Positions 7,074 through 60,706 of a DNA stretch of 64,000 nucleotides are shown one piece after another (positions within the stretch are counted from its first letter, which is position 1; each line of letters begins with the position of its first letter). The stretch is from Candidatus Aenigmatarchaeota archaeon. GTDB taxonomy: Archaea; Aenigmatarchaeota; Aenigmatarchaeia; PWEA01. The stretch spans positions 35,928 to 99,927 of the forward strand of contig JBKHHE010000002.1 of NCBI GenBank assembly GCA_046539305.1, given 5' to 3'. The notes beneath the pieces are model-generated. The model was not told the origin of the DNA. It did no database searches and was given only the letters and a program-made list of their open reading frames with translations. The position numbers and the translations under genes are program-made.

Positions 7074-7153
7074 AGCTTATAAAGGAGTATTTATAAAGGA
7101 AAAACACACATTACAAGGGGGGTATCTCCCACCATTCAAAAGGAGGTGTGAAT

Positions 7154-9530: not shown

Positions 9531-9669
9531 GCCGGGGTAGCGAAGCCTGGCCCACCGCGCCAGCTTGGAGACCTGAACAGAAAGCTGGTGTGCGTTATAA
9601 GATTGATGTGGTCTCGGACCACATCCTATGGCGAAGCACGCGTGGGTTCAAATCCCACCCCCGGCGCCA
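9531..9669 (+). tRNA. tRNA-Ser (anticodon GGA, class II); about 12-nt insertion after position 37 and an enlarged variable region holding a 9-bp hairpin. CCA is encoded
   Basis: Acceptor GCCGGGG/CCCCGGC; anticodon arm CCAGC-TTGGAGA...GCTGG; T-arm GTGGG-TTCAAAT-CCCAC; G discriminator then CCA. Confidence 0.65.
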
Positions 9670-32732: not shown

Positions 32733-32852
32733 AAGGCTGGCGGCCAAAGCGGAGGGGCAACTCCCGTACCCATCCGAACACGGAAGAAAAGTCCTCCAGC
32801 GATTTGGTCAGTATCCTCAATCCGAGGAGAACTCCAGGACGCTGCCAGCCGC
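32733..32852 (+). rRNA. rrf: 5S ribosomal RNA
   Basis: GGCUGGCGGCCAAAGCGGAGGGGCAACUCCCGUACCCAUCCGAACACGGAAG...GCUGCCAGCC closes a terminal helix; matches the archaeal 5S consensus (CCGAAC, GGAAGUUAAG-like, AGCG). Confidence 0.75.
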
Positions 32853-32914: not shown

Positions 32915-33012
32915 GCCGCGATGGTGTAGCGGCTCAACTCTCGAAGAGAGGGGGCCAAGCATAGAGCCCTGTCGAGGCTCTGACCCGGGTTCAAATCCCG
33001 GTCGCGGCGCCA
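32915..33012 (+). tRNA. tRNA-Asp (anticodon GTC) with about a 22-nt insertion in the D-loop region. CCA is encoded
   Basis: Acceptor GCCGCGA/TCGCGGC; anticodon arm GAGCC-CTGTCGA-GGCTC; T-arm CCGGG-TTCAAAT-CCCGG. Confidence 0.65.
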
Positions 33013-33050: not shown

Positions 33051-33191
33051 GGGCCCGTAGCTCAGTCTGGGAGAGCACTGGGCTTTTAAGAACACTTTGG
33101 AAAAACGTTCATGGAAAAATATTTTGATGGACCTTTTTCGAAAAGGTTCTAAGACACCCAGGAGTCGCGGGTTCAAATCCCGTCGGGCCCA
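33051..33191 (+). tRNA. tRNA-Lys (anticodon TTT) with about a 67-nt intron at 37/38
   Basis: GGGCCCG-TA-GCTC-AGTCTGGGA-GAGC-A-CTGGG-CTTTTA[intron]A-CCCAG-GAGTC-GCGGG-TTCAAAT-CCCGT-CGGGCCC-A. Confidence 0.75.
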
Positions 33192-35207: not shown

Positions 35208-35211
35208 TAAA

Positions 35212-37008
35212 ATGTCTGATGTATTTTTGAACGGACGGTTTGTAGGAGAAACGGAAGAGCCAAAGGAACTGGTCAGAGAAATTCGTGAGAAAAGAAGAGA
35301 TGACACAGTTCCTAAAGAGTTTAATATAAATTACAACAAGGAGGAAGGGAGTATACGGATAAACACCGATTCCGGTCGCGTCAGAAGACCACTGATAAGG
35401 GTGGAAGATGGAGAACCTTTGCTATCAGAAGAACACATGAAAAAACTGGAAGATGGAGAACTGGGATGGAAGGATCTGGTTGAGGAGGGTATAATCGAAT
35501 GGGTGGACGCGGAAGAGGAAGAGCTTCTGCTCATAGCTGCGGAAAAGGAAGAGCTTACCGAAGAGCACACACACCTTGAAATACACCCTGCAAACATACT
35601 TGGAATAAACGCTTCGCTCATACCGTTTCCCGAATACAACAGGGGAGACCGTATAAGTTACGGCGCGAAGATGATAGGGCAGACCCTGGGATTTTATAGC
35701 GCCAACTATCCCCTGAGGGCTGATACAAAAAGCAACCTTCTCACCTATCCACAGACTCCTCTTGTGACTACGCAGTCCGAAGCCGCGGTAGATCTAGAGA
35801 ACCACCCCGCAGGACAGAACGTAGTCGTGGCGCTTCTTTCCTACAAGGGTTTCAATATAGAAGACGCAGTTATAGTTAACAGGAGCAGCGTGGAAAGGGG
35901 ACTGGGAAGAAGCTACTTCTTCAGAACCTACGATGCCGAGAAACAGAGGTACTCGGGCGGCCAGGAGGACGAAATAAAGATTCCTGACAAGGATGTAAGA
36001 GGTTACAGATCCGAAGAAGCATACTCACGGCTTGCTGAAGACGGTGTAATCCCACCTGAGATGGAGGTGGGAAGTGGAGATGTACTCGTTGGGAAAACTT
36101 CCCCTCTGAGATTTATGGGGAGCGGAGACTTTGTCACAGGTATACAGAACAGAAGGGAAACCTCCGTAACCGTCAGACATGGCGAAGGTGGCGTAGCGGA
36201 CAAGGTTCTCCTTTCCGAAACGGAGGAGGGAAACAAACTTGTCAAGGTCACTTTAAGGGAGAAGAGAGTACCGGAGCTTGGAGATAAGTTCGCGACCAGA
36301 CATGGACAAAAGGGTGTGATAGGTCTCCTGGAGCCCGAAGAAAACCTTCCCTTCACCAAGGATGGTATAACCCCGGACATAATCCTAAATCCCCATGGAA
36401 TACCTTCCAGACAAACCGTAGGGCAGCTATTGGAGGTTTTAGCGGGCAAGACGGGCGCTCTTGGAGGAAAAAAGGTAGATGGAACTGCGTTCAGTGGTAG
36501 AGAAGAAAACGATTTAAGGGAAGAGCTGAGGGAACTGGGTTTCAGGTCCGATGGAAAGGAGGTACTATACAACGGGATGACGGGTGAAAGAATGGAAGCT
36601 GAAATCTTCCAGGGTGTCGTATACTACGAGAAACTTGAACACATGGTGTCCAACAAGATACATGCCAGGTCCCGTGGACCTGTTACTCTACTCACAAAGC
36701 AGCCCACTGAAGGAAGGGCGAAAGAAGGTGGGCTCCGGCTTGGAGAGATGGAAAAGGACTGTTTCGTCGGTCATGGCGCCTCAATGACCCTTAAAGAAAG
36801 GTTCTCCTCGGACGAGGTCAAACTACCGGTATGCAAAAAGTGTGGTATGATAGCAATGGAAAATGAAACGGAAGGAGAGGTCGTATGCCCGATGTGTAAG
36901 GGAAGTGAAACGGAAGAAGTGGAGATGAGCTATGCCTTCAAACTTCTCTTAGACGAGCTGAAATCAATGGTTATATACCCAAAACTGGATGTAGAGGAGA
37001 TGGTATAA
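35212..37008 (+). CDS. rpoB1: DNA-directed RNA polymerase subunit B' (C-terminal part of split B)
   Basis: RpoB C-terminal homology incl. zinc motif CKKCGMIAMEN...CPMC. Confidence 0.93.
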   Translation: MSDVFLNGRFVGETEEPKELVREIREKRRDDTVPKEFNINYNKEEGSIRINTDSGRVRRPLIRVEDGEPLLSEEHMKKLEDGELGWKDLVEEGIIEWVDAEEEELLLIAAEKEELTEEHTHLEIHPANILGINASLIPFPEYNRGDRISYGAKMIGQTLGFYSANYPLRADTKSNLLTYPQTPLVTTQSEAAVDLENHPAGQNVVVALLSYKGFNIEDAVIVNRSSVERGLGRSYFFRTYDAEKQRYSGGQEDEIKIPDKDVRGYRSEEAYSRLAEDGVIPPEMEVGSGDVLVGKTSPLRFMGSGDFVTGIQNRRETSVTVRHGEGGVADKVLLSETEEGNKLVKVTLREKRVPELGDKFATRHGQKGVIGLLEPEENLPFTKDGITPDIILNPHGIPSRQTVGQLLEVLAGKTGALGGKKVDGTAFSGREENDLREELRELGFRSDGKEVLYNGMTGERMEAEIFQGVVYYEKLEHMVSNKIHARSRGPVTLLTKQPTEGRAKEGGLRLGEMEKDCFVGHGASMTLKERFSSDEVKLPVCKKCGMIAMENETEGEVVCPMCKGSETEEVEMSYAFKLLLDELKSMVIYPKLDVEEMV

Positions 37009-39483
37009 ATGCCCTCAAAAATCGACAAAGTAGAGTTTGGAATCCTGTCGCCACAGCAGATAAAGGAGCTCGCAGTCGCAGAGATAAATAAGCCGGAGCT
37101 TTACGACAAAAGCGGTTACCCGGCGGAAGGCGGCGTTATGGATCCGAGAATGGGAGTAATAGATCCGGGTATGAAATGCAGGACATGTGGAGGAAGCATA
37201 GGAACATGCCAGGGACATTTCGGATACATCGATCTCTCAAGACCCGTGATACACGTCCGCTACGTTAAAACTATTTACAAGCTTCTGAGGGCCACCTGTC
37301 AGGAATGTCACGAACCACTTGCAGAGAAGGAAGAGCTGGAGGAAATGAACGATCCCCTCTACGAGCTGTACCTGAAGAAAAGAAGTAAATGCCCGCACTG
37401 CGACGCGGAACAGGACAAGGTGAAGAGGCAGAGGCCACACAACTTCACCCTGGGCGGCAAGCAGATGAACCCCAGAGAGATAAGGGAATGGTTTGAAGAC
37501 ATATCTGATGAAACCGTCGAAGAATTCGAACTGGAAGGTGGAAGGCCTGAATGGCTTATTCTGACCCTGCTACCCGTGCCCCCCGTCACTATGAGGCCCT
37601 CGATAACGCTTGAATCTAGCCAGAGGTCGGAGGACGACCTGACCCACAAACTAGTCGACCTTATAAGGATAAACCAGAGGCTTGCAGACAATATTGAGAT
37701 AGGAGCACCCGACTTCATAATAGATGACCTTTGGGAACTTCTACAGTATCATGTCTCCACCTTTTTCGACAACAACCTTTCAAGCGTCCCACAGGCCAGG
37801 CACAGAAGCGGTAGGGCGCTCAAGACTTTGGCGCAGAGACTCAAAAGCAAGGAAGGAAGGTTCCGTGGAAACCTTGCGGGGAAGCGTGTTGACTTCTCTT
37901 CGAGAACTGTAATTTCTCCCGACCCAGACATATCTATAAACGAGGTCGGGATTCCTGAAGAAATCGCAAAGGAAATAACCATACCCGAGAAAGTAAGAGA
38001 AGATAACTTTGATGAGCTCAAAAGGTTTGTCGAAAACGGACCCGAAGAGCATCCCGGCGCTAACTATCTTATAAGGCCTGACGGCGGAAAGAAAAAAATA
38101 ACTCCGGATAACTCCAGACAGATAGCCGAGGAACTGGAGACAGGGTTCACCGTGGAAAGGCATCTACAGGACGGGGATGTTACCCTCTTCAACAGGCAGC
38201 CTTCGCTCCATAGGATGAGTCTTATGGCTCACCGGGCAAGGATAATGCCCTGGAAAACGTTCAGAATCAATCTATGCGTGTGTGTTCCTTACAACGCCGA
38301 CTTTGATGGGGACGAGATGAATCTCCATGTCCCGCAGACGGCCGAGGCAAGAGCCGAAGCAGAAGAACTTATGCTTGTGCAGGAGAACCTTAGAAGCCCG
38401 AGGTTCGGCGGTCCTATAATAGGATGCACGCAGGACCATATCTCTGGTCTTTATATCTTGACGGATGACGGCGTAGAGTTTTCAAGGAAGGAGGCACAGG
38501 AACTGATAACTCAGGCCGGCAAGGAAGATGTCAGACTTGAAAGTGAAACCCTCACCGGTAAGGAGATTTTCTCCAGATTTTTACCTGACATCACTTTGGC
38601 CTTTGAATCAGAATCGGGGGAGGAGAAAGTTATTATAGAGGATGGTGAACTAAAAAAAGGCAGAATAGATGAAGCAGCGGTGGGTTCGTTCGCGGGCAAG
38701 ATAACGGAGAAAATAGAAAGGGGCTATGGAAGTGAAAGGGCCAAGGACTTCCTGAATCAGGTCAGCCGGCTTTCGCTCGAATACCTCAACAGAAGAGGAT
38801 TCAGCATAGGAGTTTCCGACGTCGACATTTCGGATAGCTCTCTCAAGGATATAGAAGATATAATTACGGACGCCGAGGATGAGGTTAAAGACCTTATAAA
38901 ATCCTTCGAAGAAGGCGAAACTGACCAGCTTCCTGGCCAGACCATGAAAGAATCCCTGGAGTCACATATAAACAGGAGACTTGGACAGGTCCAGAATACT
39001 GCAAACGAAGTTGTCACAGAAGACCTGCAGAGAGATAGTTCAGCAGTTGTAATGGCAAAGTCCGGCGCAAGGGGCGGTATGATACAGCTATCTCAGATAG
39101 CCGGGGTAGTAGGCCAGCAAACCTTGGAGGGTGAAAGGATACACCGGGGCTACAAGGACAGGACTCTGTCGTTGTTCGAAAGGGAAGAACTGTCGCCAGA
39201 AGCCCACGGATTCGTCCGCTCGTCTTTCAAGAAGGGGTTGTCGCCAGAAGAGTTCTACTTCCTTGTGATGAATGGAAGGGAAGGGTTAATGGATACCAGC
39301 CTGAGGACGAGGAAGAGTGGGTACATGGAGAGGAGACTTGTAAATGCTCTTCAGGACCTGAAGGTAGAAGTAGACGGAACCGTGAGAGATAATAGAAAGG
39401 TTATAATACAGTTCACCCCTGGCGAGGACGGTGTGGACCCCGCAAAAAGCAAGGAAGGTGAGGTCCCGGTTGAATTAAAGTGA
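37009..39483 (+). CDS. rpoA1: DNA-directed RNA polymerase subunit A'
   Basis: RpoA' homology (zinc motif CRTCGGSIGTCQGHFG; NADFDGDEMN catalytic motif). Confidence 0.95.
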   Translation: MPSKIDKVEFGILSPQQIKELAVAEINKPELYDKSGYPAEGGVMDPRMGVIDPGMKCRTCGGSIGTCQGHFGYIDLSRPVIHVRYVKTIYKLLRATCQECHEPLAEKEELEEMNDPLYELYLKKRSKCPHCDAEQDKVKRQRPHNFTLGGKQMNPREIREWFEDISDETVEEFELEGGRPEWLILTLLPVPPVTMRPSITLESSQRSEDDLTHKLVDLIRINQRLADNIEIGAPDFIIDDLWELLQYHVSTFFDNNLSSVPQARHRSGRALKTLAQRLKSKEGRFRGNLAGKRVDFSSRTVISPDPDISINEVGIPEEIAKEITIPEKVREDNFDELKRFVENGPEEHPGANYLIRPDGGKKKITPDNSRQIAEELETGFTVERHLQDGDVTLFNRQPSLHRMSLMAHRARIMPWKTFRINLCVCVPYNADFDGDEMNLHVPQTAEARAEAEELMLVQENLRSPRFGGPIIGCTQDHISGLYILTDDGVEFSRKEAQELITQAGKEDVRLESETLTGKEIFSRFLPDITLAFESESGEEKVIIEDGELKKGRIDEAAVGSFAGKITEKIERGYGSERAKDFLNQVSRLSLEYLNRRGFSIGVSDVDISDSSLKDIEDIITDAEDEVKDLIKSFEEGETDQLPGQTMKESLESHINRRLGQVQNTANEVVTEDLQRDSSAVVMAKSGARGGMIQLSQIAGVVGQQTLEGERIHRGYKDRTLSLFEREELSPEAHGFVRSSFKKGLSPEEFYFLVMNGREGLMDTSLRTRKSGYMERRLVNALQDLKVEVDGTVRDNRKVIIQFTPGEDGVDPAKSKEGEVPVELK

Positions 39484-41086: not shown

Positions 41087-41208
41087 GGGCCTGTAGCTCA
41101 GTCTGGGAGAGCGCTAGGCTCTTAACTTTTAAGAGCGCGTAATGGGACCGGTCGGTCCTTATGACGAAAGAAACCTAGAAGTCGCGGGTTCAAATCCCGT
41201 CGGGCCCA
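41087..41208 (+). tRNA. tRNA-Lys (anticodon CTT) with about a 48-nt intron at 37/38
   Basis: GGGCCTG-TA-GCTC-AGTCTGGGA-GAGC-G-CTAGG-CTCTTA[intron]A-CCTAG-AAGTC-GCGGG-TTCAAAT-CCCGT-CGGGCCC-A. Confidence 0.75.
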
Positions 41209-48077: not shown

Positions 48078-48152
48078 GCGGTCGTGGTCTAGTGGCTAGG
48101 ACACGACCCTGCCACGGTCGTAGCCCGGGTTCAAATCCCGGCGACCGCACCA
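48078..48152 (+). tRNA. tRNA-Gly (anticodon GCC), intron-less. CCA is encoded
   Basis: GCGGTCG-TG-GTCT-AGTGGCTAGGAC-ACGACC-CTGCCAC-GGTCGT-AGC-CCGGG-TTCAAAT-CCCGG-CGACCGC-A-CCA. Confidence 0.9.
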
Positions 48153-49547: not shown

Positions 49548-50456
49548 TCAAACTTCCGGCTGAGTAGTAACAGTAACGTCGTCCTCTACGAAGTATCCGT
49601 AACGAAGTCTGATTTTTACGGGTATCGCCATCTCGGGCTCAACATCGTCTTCATCAATATCTATTCTGCATCCTTTCCTGAAGTCGTGATCCCAGAAACT
49701 TACCTCTCCAAATTCTCCTCCGTAAGCATCGGCACAGTCGCCTACAAGTTCTCCAGGGTCTCCGACATCTATCTTCATTTCTATAGTATTCCTATCCAGG
49801 TCGTCCAGGACGCTACCCTCCAGGTATGCGGTGCCAGGCCCGGTATTCTGGCCAATAATAGTCAGCCTGAAGTCATCACCACCTTCCTCTATAGAAGGTG
49901 CCCTGCCTGGCTCCGGCAGGCTCACGGAAAACGGTCCTGCGGAGGTCACCGGTGCTTCAACTGCAGGTATTTCTTCGTCCTCCCTTGCCCTTGCCCTGTG
50001 CTCGTTTCTGTTCAGGGCAGGAACGTTCACCTCGGCAACGGTTTCGTATTCGTAATATACCCTCACCTTCGGGTTGTCTGTCCGCTCGACTGACTCCACC
50101 TCTGGAGCTTCAAGGCTCCAGTCCTCCGTCCTCGACTCTCCCTGATATTCATCTGTGGCCTTCTCCAAGGTATCGATGTCTTTCGGATTATCTTCATTTT
50201 CCTTCAAACTCAGTTTTCCTCGGTTGAAGATTTGAGCTTTGATGTTTTCCGCATTTACTGTTCCCATATTTTTGACATCCAGTATGATTTCCAAATCCTC
50301 GTTACTATAGACGGCCTCTGGATAGGCCTCAAGTCTATCAATTATTACACCGTCTTGTTGCGGTTCTGACTCCTCCTCGCCGAAGTCTAAACAACCGGAA
50401 ACCGCAACTACAAGCAAAGATGTGATAAGTAAAGCACCGATCTTCTTAGCTCTCAT
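49548..50456 (-). CDS. Secreted CARDB-like lipoprotein, paralog 1 (signal peptide + VSGC lipobox-like cysteine)
   Basis: MRAKKIGALLITSLLVVAVSGC...; GGDDFRLTIIGQNTGPG motif; about 300 aa, acidic. Confidence 0.6.
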   Translation of the reverse strand: MRAKKIGALLITSLLVVAVSGCLDFGEEESEPQQDGVIIDRLEAYPEAVYSNEDLEIILDVKNMGTVNAENIKAQIFNRGKLSLKENEDNPKDIDTLEKATDEYQGESRTEDWSLEAPEVESVERTDNPKVRVYYEYETVAEVNVPALNRNEHRARAREDEEIPAVEAPVTSAGPFSVSLPEPGRAPSIEEGGDDFRLTIIGQNTGPGTAYLEGSVLDDLDRNTIEMKIDVGDPGELVGDCADAYGGEFGEVSFWDHDFRKGCRIDIDEDDVEPEMAIPVKIRLRYGYFVEDDVTVTTQPEV

Positions 50457-50505: not shown

Positions 50506-51408
50506 TTAAGGTGCGACTGTCACGGAAACCATACCATCAATAATGTATCTGTAGTCAGCATATACTTCAAACGACTCCTCTTCAAGTATGTCCACCTTGT
50601 CAGGAGCAACAAAACGACAGGATATCGTGGAAGTTTCATCCTCATGGAAGTAAAGGTCATCGGCCAAAGTGAGGTTGCCATTCTCTTCAACCATCTTTCC
50701 CTGGCATCCACCTTTCTGGTTCAGCGAATCCTCGGGCCAGTCCAAGACCACGCTCCCCTCTTCAAGGACCTGATCCTTTACACTTCCCTCGCCGACGTTC
50801 CTGAACTTTATCTCAAGTATGAAATCATCTCCTCCCAGTACTGGCTGTTCGTCGGGTGTGGAGATGTTTATGTCAAGGGGCGAATCCCTCTTGAAATACC
50901 CCAGCTCCAAAGGCTCCTCAACGCCCTCATCCTTCCTCCTTAGAAACTCGTCCTCGGACATGATGGCGACGCCGTAGCTTGCATACCCTTCTGAATCGTA
51001 CCCAACCCTGTAACGGAAATTAGAAGTCCTGGCCATGGGGACATCTCCCGCCACAAACCCCCATTCCAGGTTTTTGATCTCTCCTGGTTTGAGATCGCCA
51101 ACCTCCTTCTCCTTGTACGCGTCCTCCTCCACCGACTCAAAATGGCCGAGGTCCGTCATCTTCAGCAAAACGTCGCCAACAGTGGCATTTCCTTCGTTCT
51201 CAATTTCGAACTGAAGCCTTGTCTTCCTGCCCACTTCAACTTCATCCCGCAGAGACTCCGCCGAAACCGAAACCTTTTCCGTGACTATATACTCCGGCTC
51301 ACCAACCCCCAGAATCCCTGCCAGGTCAACGTCCGTAGCGAAGCCCATACATCCCGATACACCTACTACAAGAAGTAAGGCCAGGAGAACAGCTGCCGTC
51401 TTATTCAT
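50506..51408 (-). CDS. Secreted CARDB-like lipoprotein, paralog 2
   Basis: MNKTAAVLLALLLVVGVSGC...; GGDDFILEIKFRNVGEG motif. Confidence 0.6.
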   Translation of the reverse strand: MNKTAAVLLALLLVVGVSGCMGFATDVDLAGILGVGEPEYIVTEKVSVSAESLRDEVEVGRKTRLQFEIENEGNATVGDVLLKMTDLGHFESVEEDAYKEKEVGDLKPGEIKNLEWGFVAGDVPMARTSNFRYRVGYDSEGYASYGVAIMSEDEFLRRKDEGVEEPLELGYFKRDSPLDINISTPDEQPVLGGDDFILEIKFRNVGEGSVKDQVLEEGSVVLDWPEDSLNQKGGCQGKMVEENGNLTLADDLYFHEDETSTISCRFVAPDKVDILEEESFEVYADYRYIIDGMVSVTVAP

Positions 51409-51430: not shown

Positions 51431-52354
51431 CTACGGCTCTACCTCTACACTATGCTCGTGCAAAAGCTCGTACTCGTAGTCGTTTATTTCGACCTGGACT
51501 GTCTGCTCCTCTACCGGGCCCGGTCCTTCTATTGTCGCGTCTTCAATGACGCAGGATATTCTCGGTGTGGAGCCCTCGCTGAAGTAAAGGGTTTTATCGG
51601 TATTCCTCATAGGCCATATACAGTATTTACCTCCATTATCCTGCTCTTCCGTGTAGAAGTCTTTTATTTCCTCGCCGTTGTGCTTTATCGTTATATCCTC
51701 GGTACCCAGCTCGGTTCCCATCTTTCCTTCGCCTGTGTTCTCCATGTAGATATCGAAACCAACATCAGTTTCCTCGATAAGGGGCTGGTCTCCCCAGAAG
51801 TCTATGTAGGCCTTGATAGGTCCGTCTGCGTAGCTCGCCGTCGGACTGACCCCTATGCTCTCACCTCTCCGGTCCATCTCCCTGACATGGTCCTGGGTCA
51901 CGAGGTATAGGTCGTGTGTGGACCGGGCGTCGAAGGTATAGCTCACTCTAAATCTAAGTGAACAGTCTCTTGGCATGTGTCCCATATCCTCGGAATCGGG
52001 CGTCTCAAAATTCCACCGAACCTCCCTCTCCCCTCCCCTGTATATGTCGTCATCTCTGATATCACTGCCTTCCGTTCGGTTACACATACCCCAATCGTAA
52101 AGTTCCACGTCAACACCTTCGGTGTCCTCATTCTCGTACAGATTCTTTACCAGGAAAGAAAACTCAAAGCCCGAATCCGAAGCTATGGGCGGATTGGGTA
52201 TTACATTTTTATCGGCAACCTCAAGAACGTCGCTGGGAGCTTCCTCTTCCTCCGTGCCGACGCCCATGATCCCGGCAAGGCCTCCTCCTTCCACACATCC
52301 AGAGGTAAATAAGACTAATCCCAGGGCCAGGATCAGAACCACAAACCTTTTCAT
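51431..52354 (-). CDS. Secreted CARDB-like lipoprotein, paralog 3
   Basis: MKRFVVLILALGLVLFTSGC...; similar size and motif layout. Confidence 0.6.
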   Translation of the reverse strand: MKRFVVLILALGLVLFTSGCVEGGGLAGIMGVGTEEEEAPSDVLEVADKNVIPNPPIASDSGFEFSFLVKNLYENEDTEGVDVELYDWGMCNRTEGSDIRDDDIYRGGEREVRWNFETPDSEDMGHMPRDCSLRFRVSYTFDARSTHDLYLVTQDHVREMDRRGESIGVSPTASYADGPIKAYIDFWGDQPLIEETDVGFDIYMENTGEGKMGTELGTEDITIKHNGEEIKDFYTEEQDNGGKYCIWPMRNTDKTLYFSEGSTPRISCVIEDATIEGPGPVEEQTVQVEINDYEYELLHEHSVEVEP

Positions 52355-52417
52355 AAAACCACTATATCTTGTTTTTGCTCCCCAGTAAATATAAATCTTT
52401 CCATTTACTCACCATCC

Positions 52418-55336
52418 TCATCCTCCTCCACCCCCACCATCGTCCTCATCTCCATCCTCTGGAACACATCTATAGACGTCTCCATCGCACTTGTAATCCT
52501 CCTCGAAGCTATCTTTACACCGACTATCGCCGTATTCATCGTGGCCAGGAATACATTCGTACCTCACCTCGACCGTGCTGGTCCTGCTGAACTGATACCT
52601 GTACTCTACCTCCGTCATCAGGTTTTTGGTCTGGTCAGGAGCACCATCTATGTCCAAGTGTTGTTCACCGTCGACGACACACCTCGCATCGATTGTCTCG
52701 TCCGGCTCCAGACCCAGCTTCTCACCTGTCTCATGCTCGTGTGCCTGCAGGCTCTCTATAGTTTCTAGCCTGTTGTTGATGTCCTTCTCTATAACCTTGC
52801 CGCATTCCTTTCCATCATTGCTTTCTACGGGTTCTCCGTCTATCGTTATATTTTTGATCGTTATATCTCTCAGATAGCCCTCGCCCCGGTTGGTCACGGG
52901 GAAGAAAAGGGTCCTGGTCTCACCGTCTTTCACGGGCTGCTGCGTGCCCACGCCGAGGCCGACAGCAAGGGGACCCCATTCGAACCTTGACGTGGGTTCA
53001 TAGAAATCTGTGTCACGGAGCTGGTCGTACCTGTCCTCGCTGTAAATTTCCACCTCCAGATCTGCGTAGGTGTGGACATCGTAGGCCGCGTCGATGCCGT
53101 AAGTCATGTACTCTCCAGGCTTCGCGTTTTCTTCGAAAGCAGTGTGTGTGACCGTGAAAGTGTGGGACTGTCCGGGTCTGAGGTCGACTTTACAGGGTTG
53201 TGAATCCCAATAAGCCCTATATGATTCTTCGTCATCATCGGATTCTGTGTGTCCACTCGCATCTTCACAAGGCGGACCAAACTCCCAACTGCTCCCTATA
53301 GTATTAAGAACGGGGCCGTCGGGCGACCATGTTTTCTCGGAGGTGTCGTAAATAGTCCTGGGAGCCAACTTGACATCCTCTACGGTAGGTGGTTCGTCGA
53401 CGTCTTCACGGGTCAGGGTATTCTTCAGGTCAAAGGTGTAAGTAAATATACCCTCTTCGTCAAAACCTTGGTCAGTTTTTATTGGTTCCTCAATCCTGTT
53501 CCCTGGAAGGCCTACCGGCTCCGGATTGGTTACCTCAACTGCCGTGTAGGACTTCTCAGCCTCGGTATCCGGCCGCCATATCTCCATACACGCCTGCGGT
53601 GACTGGAGACAGGTCCAGCCCTGGCCCATAGTCATCTGAATATCCTGGAAACCTGTAAGCATAGGAGAAGCTGCCGACTCAATTACCTGTATCCTGTTGT
53701 GCACGGTCGGCCACCAATCCCCAAATACAGCCTCCCCCATAACCTGTGGATAGGCCGTGGTTGCGGCCATAATTGCTATAGGTAAAACTATCATCCCCAT
53801 TACAGGCCTGGCCTCTGGAATAGGAACGGCTGTGGAGAGTCCCATCAAGACGATACCGATGTAAAGGACGGCCGCGACCGTGGTTCCCATGAGGGCGTAT
53901 CCACCCAAAACCAGGCCAATTAAGCCAGTAATTCCGGAAAACGCGGTACCGGCTTGTCCAGAACCAAAGGCCTTATACAAAAAAATTATCCCAATAAAAC
54001 CAGCAACCACTGGAAGTATCCAACGGGGGGAAATAATAATTGCCAGAATAACACCTATGATAATAAAAAAGATTAAAGATGTTTTTAAAATTCCCGGCGG
54101 TCCCTTGTTAACCGCTTCTATAAAGCCATCTGCCGCCTCCTTGAAACCTTTTGCTATTTCACCAGGCTTGCCTTCTCCGTAATCTCTAAATTTAGGAATT
54201 ACGATAAAGAAGGCTAATGAGAGAGAGAGTAGGGAAAGACCAAGTTTCCAATTTGTACTCCATATTCCGGAACCCCATACAAATGTCCAGTTGAATAGAG
54301 GTATCAGAACAAAAGCACCGTAAATAAACCTCATAATCATCATTATTCTTTCCAGCTGCCTCTCCTCTTCCCGGTCTGCAGAAGGCTTGCTGGGAAAGGT
54401 GAAGATTCCTATGGCCGCGACGATCATGGGGATCATCCTAAACACTGCCCGATCACCGACGAAAGCCAAAAGGCCGCCCGTAAGGAATATGAATCCGAAT
54501 ACCCTGAAACCGGGCTTCGCGTAGCCCCACGGAAGCGTCTTAGGAAAAATACGGTCGAAGACTAAACCAATTATTCCAAGCATGGTCAAGGCGTAGGCCA
54601 TTCCTCCGAAGCCTATCATCGGGAGGACTATGGCTATAATTAAAACCGCTATGAACATGAAAGCTATGCTTGCGACCCTCGAGCGCAGCGCCTCGCCAAA
54701 CTCGCTCGATGCCCTTTCCTTTTCCTCTTCCTTTTTATTCGCCTTTGCCGTTAATTCCTCCAGCCTTTCTGTGCTTCTAGCAAATTCTCCACATTTATTA
54801 CATTCCCACACTTCTTTATCCGGGTCGTAAGTCCAATCATCGTGGATTTCCTCGCAGTTGTCACAGTACCAGTTCCATTTGGATTCATCTTCCTCCGTTT
54901 CTTCGCCTTTTCCTTCTCCACTGTCTTTATCAGAAGGTGGAAGTCTCTCTTCAGCCTGCTTTTCTTGAATCATTTTATATAGCTCCTGTTCCTCATCTCC
55001 TGTCAAATTCCTGCCGCCTTGAAGTCCCCATTTCCTGACCTTCTGCTGAGCTTCCTGTAATTCTTCCCACGTCTCGGCTTTCTCTATCTTCTCTTTGATT
55101 TTTTCCTTATGCTCTTCTTTGGCTGCCTCCATCTCCGGCTCCCTTCTTTCTGTTTTTGGCTTCGGTTTTCCCTTCTCTTCCTTCCCGTAAACCCTGTCGG
55201 CGAGCTTTTCGATATAGTCGCGGCTCACGTTCTCGAAGACATCAGAAGTCCTGCGGACGGCCTCGTCTCTGGGAACTTCCATCTTCCTGTGGTTAATCAA
55301 AGCCTGCCTGGCTCTTTCACGGGGATCTTTGGGCAA
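52418..55336 (-). CDS. Large polytopic membrane protein (972 aa): charged coiled-coil N-terminus with a C4 zinc ribbon, at least 10 TM helices and a large cysteine-containing C-terminal ectodomain ending in poly-Gly
   Basis: WNWYCDNCEEIHDD...WECNKCGEF; long hydrophobic block at residues ~230-540; C-terminal ...CVPEDGDEDDGGGGGG. Confidence 0.6.
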   Translation of the reverse strand: MPKDPRERARQALINHRKMEVPRDEAVRRTSDVFENVSRDYIEKLADRVYGKEEKGKPKPKTERREPEMEAAKEEHKEKIKEKIEKAETWEELQEAQQKVRKWGLQGGRNLTGDEEQELYKMIQEKQAEERLPPSDKDSGEGKGEETEEDESKWNWYCDNCEEIHDDWTYDPDKEVWECNKCGEFARSTERLEELTAKANKKEEEKERASSEFGEALRSRVASIAFMFIAVLIIAIVLPMIGFGGMAYALTMLGIIGLVFDRIFPKTLPWGYAKPGFRVFGFIFLTGGLLAFVGDRAVFRMIPMIVAAIGIFTFPSKPSADREEERQLERIMMIMRFIYGAFVLIPLFNWTFVWGSGIWSTNWKLGLSLLSLSLAFFIVIPKFRDYGEGKPGEIAKGFKEAADGFIEAVNKGPPGILKTSLIFFIIIGVILAIIISPRWILPVVAGFIGIIFLYKAFGSGQAGTAFSGITGLIGLVLGGYALMGTTVAAVLYIGIVLMGLSTAVPIPEARPVMGMIVLPIAIMAATTAYPQVMGEAVFGDWWPTVHNRIQVIESAASPMLTGFQDIQMTMGQGWTCLQSPQACMEIWRPDTEAEKSYTAVEVTNPEPVGLPGNRIEEPIKTDQGFDEEGIFTYTFDLKNTLTREDVDEPPTVEDVKLAPRTIYDTSEKTWSPDGPVLNTIGSSWEFGPPCEDASGHTESDDDEESYRAYWDSQPCKVDLRPGQSHTFTVTHTAFEENAKPGEYMTYGIDAAYDVHTYADLEVEIYSEDRYDQLRDTDFYEPTSRFEWGPLAVGLGVGTQQPVKDGETRTLFFPVTNRGEGYLRDITIKNITIDGEPVESNDGKECGKVIEKDINNRLETIESLQAHEHETGEKLGLEPDETIDARCVVDGEQHLDIDGAPDQTKNLMTEVEYRYQFSRTSTVEVRYECIPGHDEYGDSRCKDSFEEDYKCDGDVYRCVPEDGDEDDGGGGGG

Positions 55337-55369
55337 CCTTCCACCTGTTTTACTTTAAAATCTTCACTT

Positions 55370-56569
55370 TTAATAGGTTACTTCGAAGTCGGAGAGGTAG
55401 AAGCCTCCCTCTCCCCCTACTTCAAACTGGAGGGTATTTTCTCCCACCGCCAAATCATCCTTCGTTATCTCTATTGAAATAGTTTCTCCCTCTTTTAGGG
55501 GTTTACCGGCCAGGATATCCTTTTCCTCACCTTCTGCAGTTTCTATCTTCAGGGTGAGGAACCTGGGGTTTCCCTCTATACGGTCTATTTGGAAAGTTAT
55601 GTTGCCAGGGAGCTGGTTATAGTTTCCGGAACTTACATCGAGCACTTTCCTGGAGGCCTCGGAATAGCCGGCGTTCCAGAAATAAACCATTTTCGCTGAG
55701 TCGAAGCTGTAAGAGGAATCCACCTCGGTGAAAAGGGTTAGCTCGTTTTGTCCTTCCTCCACCTCAGCTTCCTCAAAGTCTATCCACATCGACCTTTCCG
55801 CCCGATACTCCGGTATGTCCCTGTAAACGTCCTTTCCGTTGACCTGAACCACGAGGGGACTCTCATCCACAAACTCGTCGGGCATAAAAACCAACCTCCC
55901 CATCCTGAAGTTGTCGGCCTGATCTTCCGTGAGGGAGAACTCGAAACTCCTTTCATTCCTCCCAAGTATATCAGCCTTCATCGTGAAGTTTTCCAGTATG
56001 TAAACGGTCGGAGCCCAGAACCTCCAGCCGGAGGATTTGGGGGATATCTCCAGTTCGTTTGTCTTATCGAGCAGAGTCCTGTTCACATCTACGGTATAAG
56101 ACCTCTCGGGGGCGGGGTAACCGGAGTATACCTCCCCACCGTTGAGGAATAGCTCCAGTTCATTCATCCGGTTCGTGTCCTTCACCCAGAAGTCCAGACC
56201 AAAGGAAACTATATTATCAAGTTCGCTCTGAGTAAGGTTGAAGGCAACCGAGCGGGTTTCGCTGGTGCCTATGCCCCTCCTGACATCCACATCTTCCAGT
56301 TTTCCAAGGGTCCTCTCCTCCTCGTGGAACGAAACCTTAAAGGGTTCGTTCGAGAGAGTCACGTGCTTGAAGGCCGTGTCTTCTATCCTTCCCACGTAGA
56401 AAGCCTCCCCGGGCTCCTCCTCACCTTCCTCCTCATCACCGTCGCTGGGACCAGGAATCAGAGGGCCTTCTTCCTCACCGTCTTCTATGAAATCCATCTC
56501 CCCTCCAAATAGGACTAGGAGAACTCCAAAGAGAACTATAGCAACCAGCAGAACCCTTGCAAAATCCAT
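55370..56569 (-). CDS. Secreted acidic protein with an N-terminal signal/anchor (399 aa)
   Basis: MDFARVLLVAIVLFGVLLVLFGG then a poly-E/D linker. Confidence 0.55.
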   Translation of the reverse strand: MDFARVLLVAIVLFGVLLVLFGGEMDFIEDGEEEGPLIPGPSDGDEEEGEEEPGEAFYVGRIEDTAFKHVTLSNEPFKVSFHEEERTLGKLEDVDVRRGIGTSETRSVAFNLTQSELDNIVSFGLDFWVKDTNRMNELELFLNGGEVYSGYPAPERSYTVDVNRTLLDKTNELEISPKSSGWRFWAPTVYILENFTMKADILGRNERSFEFSLTEDQADNFRMGRLVFMPDEFVDESPLVVQVNGKDVYRDIPEYRAERSMWIDFEEAEVEEGQNELTLFTEVDSSYSFDSAKMVYFWNAGYSEASRKVLDVSSGNYNQLPGNITFQIDRIEGNPRFLTLKIETAEGEEKDILAGKPLKEGETISIEITKDDLAVGENTLQFEVGGEGGFYLSDFEVTY

Positions 56570-56621
56570 CTTACCACTTATATTAATTCATGTAACTAAT
56601 AAATATTTGTCGGGTGGTATC

Positions 56622-57653
56622 GTGAAAATCCTGGAAAGAAACGAAAAACAAGGTCTTGTGAAGCTGAAGGTGGAGAATCCCAACGACGTGTGGGAGTTGG
56701 AGCACGTTATTGAAGAGGGCGACCTGGTGGGCGGAAGGACCTTACGCAGAAAGATGATTGAAAGGAAGGATGGCGAAGAGAAGGGGGAGAAGAGACCTGT
56801 TTACCTGACCATCCAGGCGGAAAAAATCAAAATACACGAACACACAGGTAACCTTAGAATCACCGGAAAGATACAGGAAGGGCCCGAGGACGTGGAAATG
56901 GACAGCTACCACACGATAGTCGCGGAGCCCGGGAAAGTTCTTACGGTAGTGAAGAAAGGTGGATGGAAGGACTGGCAGCTCAAGACCCTCAAGAGAGCCT
57001 ACAGAAAGCCACCGAAGGTCTTGGTCTGCGTCCTTGACCGGGATAAAGCTACTCTGGCCAAAGTCACGAACGAAGTAGATATCCTGACCGAGGTTGAGTC
57101 CAGGGAGCCGGGAAAGCAGTACGATTCAGAGAAAAGTGGGGAGTATTTCGGCGAGGTGATCTCGATTCTGGAAAGAAAGTACAAAGATTTCGACAAAGTA
57201 GTTGTGGCGGGTCCTGGTTTCGCCAAAGACGGACTCTACGAAAAAATAAAGGACAGGAACAAAGAAATGGCGGAGAAGGTAACCAAGGCTTCCACGAGCC
57301 AGACGGAGAGGACGGGCGTCCAGGAGGTTATAAACAGGGGTATTATAGAGGACATCGTGAGGGAATCGAGGATTTCGGAGGAGAGCAAGGAGGTGGAGAG
57401 GGTTTTTGAAGAGATTTCCAAGGATACGGGAAAGGTCACGTACGGAGAGGAAGAAGTAAAAAAGGCCGTGGAAATGGGGGCCGTGGAGAGAATCCTGGTC
57501 TCGGAGAAGAAACTGAAGGAGCACAGGGAACTGGTTGCCGAGGCCGAGGACAAAGGGGCGGGGGTTTTAATAGTCTCGGAGAGGCACGAATCAGGCGAGA
57601 AATTAAACAATATGGGGGGCATCGCAGCTTTTCTGAGATATAGGATCGAATGA
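56622..57653 (+). CDS. Pelota/Dom34 mRNA surveillance protein (GTG start)
   Basis: VKILERNEKQGLVKLKVENPNDVWELEHVIEEGDLV... matches the aPelota N-terminus; eRF1-like central and C-terminal domains; ATAAATATT box upstream. Confidence 0.85.
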   Translation: MKILERNEKQGLVKLKVENPNDVWELEHVIEEGDLVGGRTLRRKMIERKDGEEKGEKRPVYLTIQAEKIKIHEHTGNLRITGKIQEGPEDVEMDSYHTIVAEPGKVLTVVKKGGWKDWQLKTLKRAYRKPPKVLVCVLDRDKATLAKVTNEVDILTEVESREPGKQYDSEKSGEYFGEVISILERKYKDFDKVVVAGPGFAKDGLYEKIKDRNKEMAEKVTKASTSQTERTGVQEVINRGIIEDIVRESRISEESKEVERVFEEISKDTGKVTYGEEEVKKAVEMGAVERILVSEKKLKEHRELVAEAEDKGAGVLIVSERHESGEKLNNMGGIAAFLRYRIE

Positions 57654-60590: not shown

Positions 60591-60706
60591 TGGGCCTGCG
60601 CGGATTTGAACCGCGGATCTCCACCTCTTTTCTACGAAGTAGGAAAGTTCGAAATCCCCGATTTCGTATCGTGAAGGTGGCGTCATAGCCGCTAGACCAC
60701 AGGCCC
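60591..60706 (-). tRNA. tRNA-Val (anticodon CAC) with about a 42-nt intron at 37/38
   Basis: Reverse complement gives GGGCCTG-TG-GTCT-AGCGGCTA-TGAC-G-CCACC-TTCACG[intron]A-GGTGG-AGATC-CGCGG-TTCAAAT-CCGCG-CAGGCCC-A. Confidence 0.7.

What the first reader, a model, noticed from the sequence alone, without database searches (positions are those of the whole stretch)
52418..55336. 972-aa membrane protein with a cytoplasmic coiled coil and C4 zinc ribbon, at least 10 TM helices and a cysteine-rich ectodomain ending in GGGGGG
The domain combination is unusual:
- a charged coiled-coil N-terminus with WNWYCDNC...WECNKCGEF (a zinc ribbon as in nucleic-acid or partner-binding modules);
- a long polytopic core;
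- a C-terminal extracellular domain of about 430 aa with paired cysteines (CIPGHDEYGDSRCKD...YKCDGDVYRC) and a poly-Gly tail.

It could act as a membrane platform or translocase for the adjacent lipoproteins.
Basis: seen in the sequence. Interest (0 to 1): 0.6.

Follow-up and report, generated by a model that had tools for sequence, protein, structure and literature searches.

The report
Orphan archaeal envelope-complex membrane subunit
This is a real, conserved but completely uncharacterised membrane protein of an uncultured DPANN archaeon (Aenigmatarchaeota) whose outer domain is a sister copy of the three lipoproteins encoded next to it, so the five-gene cluster most likely builds a lineage-specific cell-surface complex tied to the cytoplasm through a zinc-ribbon tail.

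Summary
It starts at a TTG preceded by a GGTGGA ribosome-binding site.

- **Anatomy.** A 3-helix N-domain, a charged helical linker, a C4 zinc ribbon, 11 TM helices (N-in, C-out), an invariant FGxWWP junction, two Ig-like beta-sandwiches, a Cys-rich knot and a non-conserved G6 tail.
- **Not a fusion artefact.** NCBI MAGs carry the identical 972-aa protein, annotated as hypothetical. Relatives are either fused or naturally split.
- **An undescribed family.** It has 98 representatives, and every taxonomically labelled locus is Aenigmatarchaeota. Pfam, NCBIfam and PDB give no significant match by sequence or fold.
- **Ectodomain paralogy.** The ectodomain is paralogous to the three downstream lipobox lipoproteins (hhalign 99.5%).
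- **Conserved gene order.** Pelota | 399-aa bitopic protein, this gene, then three or four ~300-aa genes, shown by homology to be lipoprotein paralogues in most loci.
- **No catalytic or transport signature.** There are no conserved polar TM residues, no ATPase partner and no internal repeat.

Best reading (about 0.45): this is the polytopic base subunit of a lineage-specific hetero-oligomeric envelope complex. "Platform for the lipoproteins" is plausible; "translocase" is unsupported. Interest is moderate.

The parts
52418..55336 (-). 972-aa ORF (big972), TTG start, TGA stop; NCBI MFP4115907.1 'hypothetical protein', Candidatus Aenigmatarchaeota archaeon
55337..55345 (-). Shine-Dalgarno-like GGTGGAAGG immediately upstream of the TTG start
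   Evidence: sequence read directly
55181..55336 (-). aa 1-52: cytoplasmic three-helix domain (consensus xALxNH(R/K)xMGxSxxEAVxxTSxxF...YIEKxADxVY). It is the most confident part of the AF2 model (pLDDT about 93). It recurs in soluble neighbour proteins of relatives.
54782..54874 (-). aa 155-185: C4 zinc ribbon, CDNC-x17-CNKC, modelled as four short beta strands
   Evidence: family-wide recurrence
53747..54682 (-). aa 219-530: 11 TM helices plus one amphipathic cytoplasmic helix (aa 391-410). Relatives are split after TM2 or after TM6.
53579..53752 (-). aa 529-586: the most conserved segment of the family. YPxVMGEAVFGxWWP sits at the outer end of TM11, followed by a long helix and the CLxSPxxC pair (C576/C583).
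52562..53554 (-). aa 595-925: two Ig-like beta-sandwich domains (remotely CARDB/E-set-like) with conserved Cys pairs C690/C715 and C845/C886. Paralogous to the full mature part of the three downstream lipoproteins.
52421..52561 (-). aa 926-972: Cys-rich C-terminal knot (C928, C940, C950, C957; present in close relatives) followed by an acidic stretch and a G6 tail that is not conserved
55370..56569 (-). up399: first gene of the cluster. N-terminal TM anchor, acidic linker and a beta-rich ectodomain. It is its own orphan family, unrelated to the lipoproteins, and is conserved upstream in relatives.
51431..52354 (-). lp307: lipobox (SGC) lipoprotein, paralogue 1
50506..51408 (-). lp300: lipobox lipoprotein, paralogue 2. 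It is the closest to the big972 ectodomain by BLASTP (about 27% identity over 244 aa).
49548..50456 (-). lp302: lipobox lipoprotein, paralogue 3, with a sub-threshold CARDB match
56487..57653 (+). Pelota (aRF1-like) gene, divergent from the cluster. The listed ORF start is too far upstream. This adjacency is conserved in relatives and serves as a synteny marker; it is not claimed as a functional part.

Best explanation
big972 is the polytopic membrane 'base' subunit of a five-protein cell-envelope complex specific to Aenigmatarchaeota: up399, big972, lp307, lp300 and lp302.

**Shown**
- The gene is real and conserved.
- Its topology is N-in/C-out.
- Its two-beta-sandwich ectodomain is a paralogue of the three lipid-anchored proteins encoded directly downstream.
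- The gene order is conserved across the phylum.

**Inferred**
- The four paralogous ectodomains, one held by 11 TM helices and three by lipid anchors, co-assemble on the outer face of the membrane. The result would be a pseudo-symmetric hetero-oligomeric stalk or scaffold, probably together with the bitopic up399.
- The invariant R-P-x-x-G ... G-x-A-x-F-G-x-W-W-P helix (TM11) is the rigid connection through the membrane.
- The cytoplasmic three-helix domain plus zinc ribbon docks the complex to soluble partners. In relatives the same module is found on neighbouring soluble proteins.
- The complex is a structural, adhesive or anchoring element of the envelope, not an enzyme or an energised transporter.
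For: **Gene reality**
- Uninterrupted ORF with an SD-like site upstream of the start.
- Identical 972-aa protein in two NCBI MAG records, with fragments in a third.
- 98 family representatives.

**Taxonomy**
- 7 of 10 GTDB loci are labelled Aenigmatarchaeota; the other three are unclassified archaea. NCBI names agree.

**Conserved cluster**
- The cluster and its order are conserved.
- Intergenic gaps are short: 33, 63, 22 and 49 nt.

**Paralogy**
- BLASTP big972 aa 695-924 versus lp300, E 4e-8.
- Profile-profile 99.5%, E 7.7e-23 over 249 columns, covering the whole mature lipoprotein.
- The three lipoproteins are mutually 23-25% identical, with an invariant Cys and a near-invariant S-G before it.

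**Structural rather than catalytic**
- In 105 members the positions at or above 75% identity are almost all G, P, F, W, Y, L or A. The exceptions are R336, R510 and several ectodomain positions (E601, S783, Q800, N816, T903). No acidic, His or other polar TM residue is conserved.
- No internal repeat in the TM domain.
- No ATPase in the cluster.

**Surface protein behaviour**
- The cluster evolves about twice as fast as housekeeping neighbours. big972 is 29-34% identical and the lipoproteins 32-38%, against Pelota at 61-66% and CTP synthase at 74-77%.

**Modularity typical of multi-subunit assemblies**
- Natural splits after TM2 (L004, L008) and after TM6 (L003, L007).

**Cytoplasmic module**
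- It is shared with soluble neighbours: L011 8773-10056 and L011 5944-8616(-).

**Ectodomain fold**
- Tandem Ig-like sandwiches; the best PDB resemblances are integrin alpha legs, RbmA and WxLIP.
- Sub-threshold CARDB, DUF11 and NPCBM_assoc matches.
Against: - No experiment, no expression data and no multimer model exist. Co-assembly of the paralogues is inferred from paralogy and operon structure only.
- Eleven TM helices, often split over two polypeptides, are far more than an anchor needs. This suggests the membrane part does something beyond anchoring.
- The AF2 models are only moderately confident (mean pLDDT 66-67, built from 12-13 sequences). The absence of a fold match is therefore weak evidence.
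- Distant family members (P0044, P0083) do not have ~300-aa genes of that kind directly downstream, going by gene size and strand; their homology was not tested. The lipoprotein partnership may therefore not be universal.
Confidence: 0.45

Rival explanations
1. Trans-envelope conduit or uptake channel. The two TM modules (TM1-6 and TM7-11) form a passive pore or a lipid/metabolite conduit. The beta-sandwich ectodomain and lipoproteins form a cap or ligand-binding antechamber, serving a symbiont that must import building blocks.
For: - 11 TM helices with a strongly conserved core, frequently split into two co-encoded polypeptides.
- An invariant aromatic motif at the outer-leaflet interface.
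- From general knowledge, DPANN archaea are metabolically reduced; this was not tested here.
Against: - No conserved charged or polar residues inside the TM helices.
- No internal structural repeat.
- No hit to any transporter family by Pfam, NCBIfam or PDB sequence search.
- No fold match; the best Foldseek E-value is 0.8.
- No energising partner in the cluster.
Confidence: 0.2
2. Transmembrane receptor or signal transducer. The Ig-like ectodomain, with its lipoprotein co-receptors, senses an external ligand or surface. The cytoplasmic three-helix domain plus zinc ribbon relays the signal, for example by binding nucleic acid or a regulator.
For: - Cytoplasmic zinc ribbons recur in the family and vary in number from one to three.
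- The well-folded three-helix N-domain is shared with soluble neighbour proteins.
- Zinc ribbons can mediate specific protein contacts in archaea; the CdpC-FtsZ1 case is described in bioRxiv 10.64898/2026.07.16.738847.
Against: - No recognisable signalling output domain (kinase, HAMP, HTH) in Pfam.
- About half of the members that reach TM1 lack an upstream zinc ribbon.
- Receptors rarely need 11 TM helices or three paralogous lipoproteins.
Confidence: 0.12
3. Dedicated lipoprotein translocase or maturation platform for the adjacent lipoproteins.
For: - Strict co-occurrence with lipobox proteins in the main clade.
- Two distant members sit one gene away from an AliA_AliB gene.
Against: - The ectodomain is a paralogue of the supposed substrates, which points to co-assembly rather than an enzyme-substrate relation.
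- The lipoproteins have standard signal peptides with a lipobox.
- Archaeal lipidation is attributed to AliA/AliB (PMC12462473), whose Pfam family PF01889 does not hit big972.
- No ATPase partner and no conserved catalytic residues.
Confidence: 0.05
4. GT-C-type glycosyltransferase or oligosaccharyltransferase-like enzyme: a polytopic N-terminal part with a C-terminal external domain and a WW motif after the last TM helix, as in AglB/STT3.
For: Gross architecture, and a 'WWP' immediately after the last TM helix that superficially recalls the WWDxG motif of STT3 (resemblance recalled from memory).
Against: - No STT3 or other GT-C Pfam or NCBIfam hit.
- The motif is FGxWWP, not WWDxG.
- No conserved acidic residue in any external loop.
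- The TM model does not match PglB/AglB; the only GT-C-like protein among the listed matches, the O-antigen ligase WaaL, scores E 2.1, TM-score 0.13.
Confidence: 0.03
5. Assembly or annotation artefact: a frameshift fusion of two genes, or a pseudogene.
For: In some relatives (L003, L007, L004, L008) the same region is encoded by two adjacent genes.
Against: - The ORF is uninterrupted.
- The identical 972-aa product is present in two NCBI protein records on two contigs.
- Fused homologues of 855-1113 aa align end to end.
- The splits in relatives are clean gene boundaries, each with its own SD-like site and ATG.
Confidence: 0.01

Closest known systems
CARDB / E-set Ig-like beta-sandwich surface domains (Pfam PF07705 and clan relatives DUF11, NPCBM_assoc)
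   Same: The first beta-sandwich of the lipoproteins and ectodomain carries the N-x-G-x-G-type strand motif. It gives sub-threshold CARDB hits: lp302 scores 20.3 bits against a cut-off of 22.7, and 6 of 26 lipoprotein homologues match at E<0.01. One ectodomain hits DUF11.
   Different: No member reaches the gathering score. The two-domain unit with its conserved Cys pairs, the YxY terminal strand and the GP...QP loop is a distinct family.
Integrin alpha-chain leg (thigh/calf) domains and other tandem Ig-like stalks (RbmA, WxLIP)
   Same: These are the best Foldseek resemblances to the ectodomain: 3k71_A at E 1.7e-3, RbmA and WxLIP at about 1e-2. A profile-versus-PDB sequence search gives weak hits to integrin alpha-V residues 555-657 (E 0.26). 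All suggest a rigid extracellular 'leg' of tandem sandwiches.
   Different: None of these matches is significant and TM-scores are about 0.1. The resemblance is to a generic fold only, and there is no beta-propeller or I-domain.
Archaeal S-layer / anchor systems (e.g. SlaA-SlaB; S_layer_N/C families; PACE-CTERM putative S-layer proteins)
   Same: Membrane-anchored extracellular beta-rich proteins that form the archaeal envelope. lp302 gives a very weak hit to NF033506 (E 0.013).
   Different: - No S-layer family is matched; the lp302 hit scores 14 bits against a cut-off of 110.
- Anchoring here is by 11 TM helices plus lipoboxes.
- A relative's contig (L013) encodes a separate S_layer_C protein, so this cluster is probably not the S-layer itself.
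Archaeal lipobox lipoproteins and the AliA/AliB lipidation pathway (PMC12462473)
   Same: The three downstream proteins have a signal peptide and an invariant lipobox Cys. Lipoproteins are reported as prevalent in DPANN.
   Different: big972 itself is not a lipoprotein and does not match AliA_AliB (PF01889).
Zinc-ribbon membrane tethers such as CdpC, the FtsZ1 anchor of Haloferax (bioRxiv 10.64898/2026.07.16.738847)
   Same: A cytoplasmic C4 zinc ribbon attached to the membrane. That paper reports multi-zinc-ribbon relatives in DPANN, including Aenigmatarchaeota.
   Different: No homology was tested or shown. CdpC binds the membrane by an amphipathic helix and has no TM domain or ectodomain.

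Membership tests
C4 zinc ribbon | Two CxxC knuckles separated by a short beta hairpin, giving four Cys ligands | tested here: met
   - C158/C161 and C179/C182.
- AF2 models four short strands at aa 156-179.
- The window protein matches Pfam only below threshold: GATA, DUF5816, Zn_ribbon_3 and others.
- Homologue P0002 scores 27.3 bits on Zn_Ribbon_TF against a cut-off of 29. Other members hit DZR at E 1.6e-10 and Zn_Ribbon_1 at E 9e-11.
- Metal binding itself cannot be tested here.
CARDB (PF07705) / E-set beta-sandwich | Profile score at or above the Pfam gathering threshold (22.7 bits) | tested here: inconclusive
   - lp302 scores 20.3 bits, E 6.4e-4; lp300 scores 14.8 bits.
- 6 of 26 lipoprotein homologues match at E<0.01 and none is reported above threshold.
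- Ectodomains: one DUF11 hit only.
- The fold is an Ig-like sandwich in the AF2 model.
Archaeal lipobox lipoprotein (applies to lp307, lp300 and lp302, not to big972) | N-terminal signal peptide ending in a lipobox with an invariant Cys at +1 | tested here: met
   - The signal peptides end in FTSGC, GVSGC and AVSGC.
- In 26 homologues the Cys is invariant and the preceding S and G are at least 90% conserved.
- Actual lipidation cannot be tested here.
Known transporter / translocase families (MFS, ABC permease, RND, MacB/FtsX, SecY/YidC, FliP-type export gate) | Significant sequence-profile or fold match to the family | tested here: not met
   - Pfam and NCBIfam give no hit.
- The best PDB profile hits are FliP at E 0.039 and NADH dehydrogenase chain 3 at E 0.42, neither significant.
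- Foldseek of the TM-only model has a best E of 0.8 and TM-scores of 0.23 or less.
- No internal repeat.
AliA/AliB lipoprotein lipidation enzymes (PF01889) | Match to PF01889 | tested here: not met
   PF01889 is in the library used: it is recorded on neighbour genes of L014 and L016. It does not hit big972 even at E 0.1.
STT3/AglB oligosaccharyltransferase (GT-C) | STT3 profile match, acidic residues in the first external loop, and a WWDxG motif | tested here: not met
   - No STT3 hit.
- The motif is FGxWWP.
- No conserved acidic residue in the TM region.
- No PglB or AglB fold match.
Archaeal S-layer protein families (S_layer_N/C, PACE-CTERM-PROT NF033506) | Profile match above the curated cut-off | tested here: not met
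   Only lp302 hits NF033506, at 14.1 bits against a cut-off of 110. There are no Pfam S-layer hits.
The new family itself (Aenigmatarchaeota polytopic envelope protein) | Conserved TM core with R-P-x-x-G, then G-x-A-x-F-G-x-W-W-P at the end of the last TM helix, then the two-sandwich ectodomain with G-P...Q-P, N-x-G-x-G and Y-x-Y motifs | tested here: met
   The window protein carries every invariant position: R510, P511, G514, G534, F538, G539, W541, W542, P543, P580, G788, P789, P801, N816, G820, Y912 and Y914.

The most novel reading that the evidence does not exclude
The cluster encodes the base of a cell-cell contact apparatus specific to Aenigmatarchaeota.

- The Ig-like 'legs' (the ectodomain, three lipoprotein paralogues and up399) would reach the partner cell's envelope.
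- The two-module 11-TM core would form the membrane conduit or fusion site.
- The zinc-ribbon/three-helix tail would recruit cytoplasmic factors.

This would be a previously undescribed kind of trans-envelope machine used by a DPANN symbiont to attach to, or exchange material with, its host.

Hints, none decisive:
- One distant member (P0083) ends in an extracellular SLT lytic-transglycosylase domain.
- The family's labelled loci are all from a symbiont-type phylum.
- The proteins diverge fast, as surface proteins do.
- The membrane core is larger than an anchor needs.
Probability: 0.15. Interest if true: 0.8.

Novelty: new variant of a known kind. Interest (0 to 1): 0.45.

Why it matters
Aenigmatarchaeota are uncultured DPANN archaea. 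Their envelope, and the way they contact other cells, are unknown.

This work turns one odd ORF into a defined five-gene surface module that recurs, syntenic, in the Aenigmatarchaeota-type loci examined. It has a clear anatomy:
- a polytopic base;
- three lipid-anchored paralogues;
- one bitopic partner;
- a cytoplasmic zinc-ribbon tail.

That gives concrete targets for cryo-electron tomography, metaproteomics, antibody labelling and multimer modelling. It also defines at least three protein families missing from Pfam and NCBIfam: the polytopic core, the two-sandwich lipoprotein and up399.

If the complex proves to be the host-contact structure, it would be a new type of archaeal trans-envelope machine. 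If it is merely an envelope scaffold, it remains a lineage marker of modest general interest.

Tried and rejected
**Searches that failed or gave little**
A TM-containing alignment did little better, with 2 hits. Only the exhaustive HMMER search and an ectodomain-only profile worked.
- Pfam and NCBIfam on all five cluster proteins gave nothing above threshold.
- PDB sequence-profile searches of the TM+ectodomain, N-domain, up399, lipoprotein and ectodomain profiles gave nothing significant.

**Fold searches**
- Foldseek against PDB with the full-length model returned only generic Ig-like tandem hits.
- Foldseek with the TM-only model returned no match.

**Specific ideas tested and rejected**
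- up399 as a further paralogue of the lipoproteins: rejected (hhalign probability 7%).
- Internal duplication in the TM domain: none found.
- The in-frame stop in L003 and L007 as recoding or read-through: rejected. The stop codons differ (TAG and TAA), and each is followed by one codon and an ATG with a GGTGAT SD-like site, so these are ordinary gene boundaries.
- UBA-like or HTH identity for the three-helix N-domain: no support from Pfam or PDB sequence searches.
- GT-C/AglB, AliA/AliB and S-layer membership: rejected (see the membership tests).

**Other checks**
- Literature searches found no description of this cluster.
- There are no further paralogues elsewhere in the window.


Full report
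**1. The observation**

The interval 52418-55336 contains a single 972-codon ORF. It is on the minus strand; the plus-strand translation is riddled with stops. It starts with TTG at 55336, directly preceded by GGTGGAAGG, a good archaeal Shine-Dalgarno sequence. The previous gene ends 33 nt upstream.

Three things support this start:
- The N-terminus aligns residue for residue with homologues, for example P0002 MPEDLEKRVREAIRNHRRMG.
- NCBI's own annotation of the same organism lists an identical 972-aa 'hypothetical protein ACLFTQ_01755' (MFP4115907.1, MFP4150550.1) from Candidatus Aenigmatarchaeota archaeon.
- That protein lies on two contigs, with partial copies at contig ends in a third assembly.

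- A K/E-rich N-terminus.
- Cys158/161/179/182.
- A hydrophobic core.
- An acidic C-terminal part with ten cysteines and a terminal GGGGGG.

I count 11 TM helices, by Kyte-Doolittle hydropathy and in two AlphaFold2 models. I counted loop charges from the translation using the TM boundaries. They obey the positive-inside rule for an N-in/C-out topology. This places the zinc ribbon in the cytoplasm and the Cys-rich domain outside.

**2. The organism and the family**

The window is archaeal:
- It contains intron-bearing tRNAs.
- RpoB and RpoA are split, and aEF-2, aEF-1alpha and Pelota are present.

The exhaustive HMMER search of 1.84 billion representatives found 98 relatives at E<=1e-3, 16 of them at E<=1e-30.

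A scan of GTDB species genomes returned 10 loci. Seven are labelled Candidatus Aenigmatarchaeota and three are unclassified archaeal MAGs, one of them a closed 0.83-Mb chromosome. Every named homologue is a 'hypothetical protein'.

Two blocks are conserved across the whole family:
- The last TM helices, with R510-P511-x-x-G514 on the inner side and G534-x-A-x-F538-G539-x-W541-W542-P543 at the outer end of TM11. A helix and a C576...C583 pair follow.
- An ectodomain block with G788-P789, Q800-P801, N816-x-G-x-G820 and Y912-x-Y914.

**3. Anatomy from the models**

*Full-length model* (13-sequence alignment, mean pLDDT 66, pTM 0.40):
- A confident three-helix bundle at aa 1-50 (pLDDT about 93).
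- Long charged helices.
- A four-stranded zinc knuckle at aa 156-182.
- 11 TM helices, with an amphipathic cytoplasmic helix between TM6 and TM7.
- A roughly 50-residue juxtamembrane helix.
- Two beta-sandwich domains (pLDDT 75-87) with an inserted helix.
- A low-confidence Cys-rich end.

*Fold searches:*
- Foldseek against the PDB found only generic tandem Ig-like stalks: integrin alpha-X legs at E 1.7e-3, plus RbmA, WxLIP and chaperone-usher sandwiches.
- A separate model of the TM part (pLDDT 67, pTM 0.58) matched no solved membrane protein. The best E was 0.8 and TM-scores were 0.23 or less.

*Sequence searches:*
- Pfam, NCBIfam and PDB profile searches gave nothing significant for the core.
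- The lipoprotein and ectodomain sandwiches give sub-threshold CARDB, DUF11 and NPCBM_assoc hits.

**4. The surroundings are the key**

big972 is the second gene of a tightly spaced minus-strand cluster:
- up399 (55370-56569): N-terminal TM anchor plus a beta-rich domain.
- big972.
- Three roughly 300-aa proteins: lp307, lp300 and lp302. Each has a signal peptide ending in SGC.

The three lipoproteins are mutual paralogues at 23-25% identity. The big972 ectodomain (aa 695-924) hits lp300 at E 4e-8.

At profile level, the ectodomain family aligns to the lipoprotein family with 99.5% probability. The E-value is 7.7e-23 over 249 columns, which is the whole mature lipoprotein. up399 is unrelated to them.

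The order up399, big, lp307-type, lp300-type, lp302-type, divergent from Pelota, recurs in:
- the GTDB loci;
- metagenome contigs of close relatives (L011);
- distant relatives, where Pelota, the big gene and a run of ~300-aa downstream genes recur by gene size (L013, P0031, L017). Homology to the window lipoproteins was confirmed for L013.

L011 even shares the window's flanking housekeeping genes: methyltransferase, 221-aa membrane protein, HAD hydrolase, ThiI and CTP synthase.

The cluster proteins diverge about twice as fast as those neighbours, as exposed surface proteins typically do. They are 29-38% identical, against 61-77% for the neighbours.

**5. Fusion or fission**

- Fused versions of 855-1113 aa align end to end, and the identical ORF occurs in independent assemblies.
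- The family is naturally modular. In L003 and L007 it is two genes, cut after TM6. Each boundary is stop, one codon, ATG, with a GGTGAT ribosome-binding site. The stop codons differ, so this is not recoding.
- In L004 and L008 the cytoplasmic part, the zinc ribbons and TM1-2 form a separate upstream gene.
- About 20 of 105 members start only at TM7-8, consistent with the C-terminal half of split genes or truncated gene calls.

**6. The zinc ribbon and N-domain**

- 36 of 76 members that include TM1 have at least two CxxC motifs upstream, and some have up to three ribbons.
- Pfam DZR, Zn_Ribbon_1 and related families hit many members, with a best E of 9e-11.
- The three-helix N-domain is present in the closest relatives.
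- In L011 the N-domain also occurs on a soluble 427-aa protein encoded just upstream. It occurs again inside an 890-aa soluble protein, next to a double zinc ribbon.

The module is therefore a shared cytoplasmic adaptor, not a one-off. It matches no known domain.

**7. What argues against enzyme or transporter**

- In an alignment of 105 members, positions at or above 75% identity are mostly G, P, F, W, Y, L or A. The exceptions are R336 and R510, both at cytoplasmic helix ends, and ectodomain positions such as E601.
- No acidic, histidine or polar TM residue is conserved.
- No internal repeat links the TM modules.
- No ATPase is encoded in the cluster.
- AliA_AliB (PF01889), the family of the archaeal lipoprotein lipidation enzymes (PMC12462473), does not hit big972.
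- The superficial resemblance to AglB/STT3 (polytopic, external domain, 'WW' after the last helix) fails on the profile, the motif and the acidic loop residues.

**8. Interpretation**

*Shown:* a real, conserved family found so far only in Aenigmatarchaeota and unclassified archaeal MAGs. Its C-out ectodomain is a paralogue of three co-operonic lipoproteins, and zinc-ribbon modules recur on its cytoplasmic side.

*Inferred (confidence about 0.45):* the four paralogous ectodomains and up399 assemble into a hetero-oligomeric stalk or scaffold on the outer membrane face. The polytopic protein is the base. TM11 is the conserved link through the membrane. The N-terminal module tethers the complex to cytoplasmic partners.

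*Main reservation:* 11 TM helices, often split between two polypeptides, exceed what an anchor needs. A conduit (0.2) or a receptor (0.12) therefore remain live alternatives. 'Translocase for the lipoproteins' is unlikely (0.05).

*Most novel admissible reading (about 0.15):* a host-contact or trans-envelope apparatus of this DPANN lineage. One distant member (P0083, 1612 aa) ends in an extracellular SLT lytic-transglycosylase domain. This shows that at least some family ectodomains are built to act on another cell's wall.

**9. Novelty and score**

No component of the membrane core or of up399 belongs to any described family. The sandwiches are remote E-set relatives.

I rate it a new variant of a known kind: a membrane-anchored archaeal surface complex built from Ig-like subunits and lipoproteins. 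It has an unprecedented polytopic, zinc-ribbon-bearing base. It could be reclassified as categorically new if the membrane core proves to be a machine.

Interest is 0.45. The finding is well defined and testable and would be useful for DPANN cell biology. But orphan surface families are common in such genomes, and no function has been demonstrated.

Noticed in passing
window 9531-9666, 33051-33191, 41087-41208 (+) and 60591-60706 (-): Four Rfam tRNA matches of 116-141 nt that ARAGORN does not report. These are presumably intron-containing archaeal tRNAs. ARAGORN finds only tRNA-Asp (32938-33012) and tRNA-Gly (48078-48152).
   Followed up: no
window 32736-32850: A stand-alone 5S rRNA gene just upstream of tRNA-Asp and a second (intron-bearing) tRNA, with no 16S or 23S gene in the window.
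   Followed up: no
L007 10805-10813 and L003 1450-1458: In two soda-lake Aenigmatarchaeota MAGs the orthologue is cut after TM6 into two genes. The boundary is a stop (TAG or TAA), one codon and an ATG in the same frame, with GGTGAT just upstream. It looks like a genuine gene fission rather than recoding or a sequencing error.
   Followed up: partly
L004 7476-9980 and L008 8467-9843: In two other relatives the cytoplasmic part, the zinc ribbons and TM1-2 form a separate upstream gene. This is a second, independent fission point in the family.
   Followed up: partly
L011 8773-10056 (+) and L011 5944-8616 (-): The three-helix N-domain of big972 (NH(R/K)KMGHS...) also occurs on a soluble 427-aa protein. 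It occurs again at aa 661-710 of a soluble 890-aa protein, directly before a double zinc ribbon. This points to a shared cytoplasmic adaptor module of unknown fold family. L007 5597-7582 (-) encodes a homologue of the 890-aa protein.
   Followed up: partly
P0083 aa 1462-1497 (L014 10001-14839): A distant family member of 1612 aa carries a C-terminal, predicted extracellular SLT lytic-transglycosylase domain (41 bits against a cut-off of 21.3). This is odd for an archaeon and may be aimed at a bacterial partner's wall.
   Followed up: partly
L014 15855-20412 and L016 12306-16871: The distant members P0083 and P0044 lie one gene away (convergent) from a block of AliA_AliB (lipoprotein lipidation enzyme), two T2SSF genes and T2SSE (a type IV pilus-like assembly system). 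Whether this is functional linkage or lineage synteny is unknown.
   Followed up: no
window 56487-57653 (+) and equivalents in L004, L006, L007, L008, L009, L011, L013, L017: Pelota is the divergent neighbour of the cluster in every locus that extends far enough, even in distant relatives. The window's listed Pelota ORF start overlaps up399 by 83 nt and is probably about 130 nt too far upstream.
   Followed up: partly
L011 1-3532, L008 2-6139, L004 2544-5159, L007 107-2617: On the far side of Pelota, relatives encode very large proteins (836 to 4291 aa) with weak or faint Big_3_3, CarboxypepD_reg and prealbumin-like matches, suggesting surface proteins. The window has no such gene there; it has small ORFs, DUF5828 and a PHO4 phosphate transporter instead.
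   Followed up: no
window-wide (e.g. 4875-7073, 7148-8422, 33708-39483): Housekeeping proteins are markedly acidic: D+E is 17-20% against K+R at 10-15%. The closest relatives come from soda-lake sediment MAGs (B1Sed10, T1Sed10). This suggests a halophilic Aenigmatarchaeota lineage.
   Followed up: no
window 176-1816 (+): A 546-aa ORF at the left edge of the window has no Pfam match at E<=1e-5.
   Followed up: no
window 52375-52395 (-): An AAAGATTTATATT element about 40 nt upstream of the lp307 start looks like an archaeal BRE/TATA box. The lipoprotein genes may therefore also have their own promoter inside the cluster.
   Followed up: no
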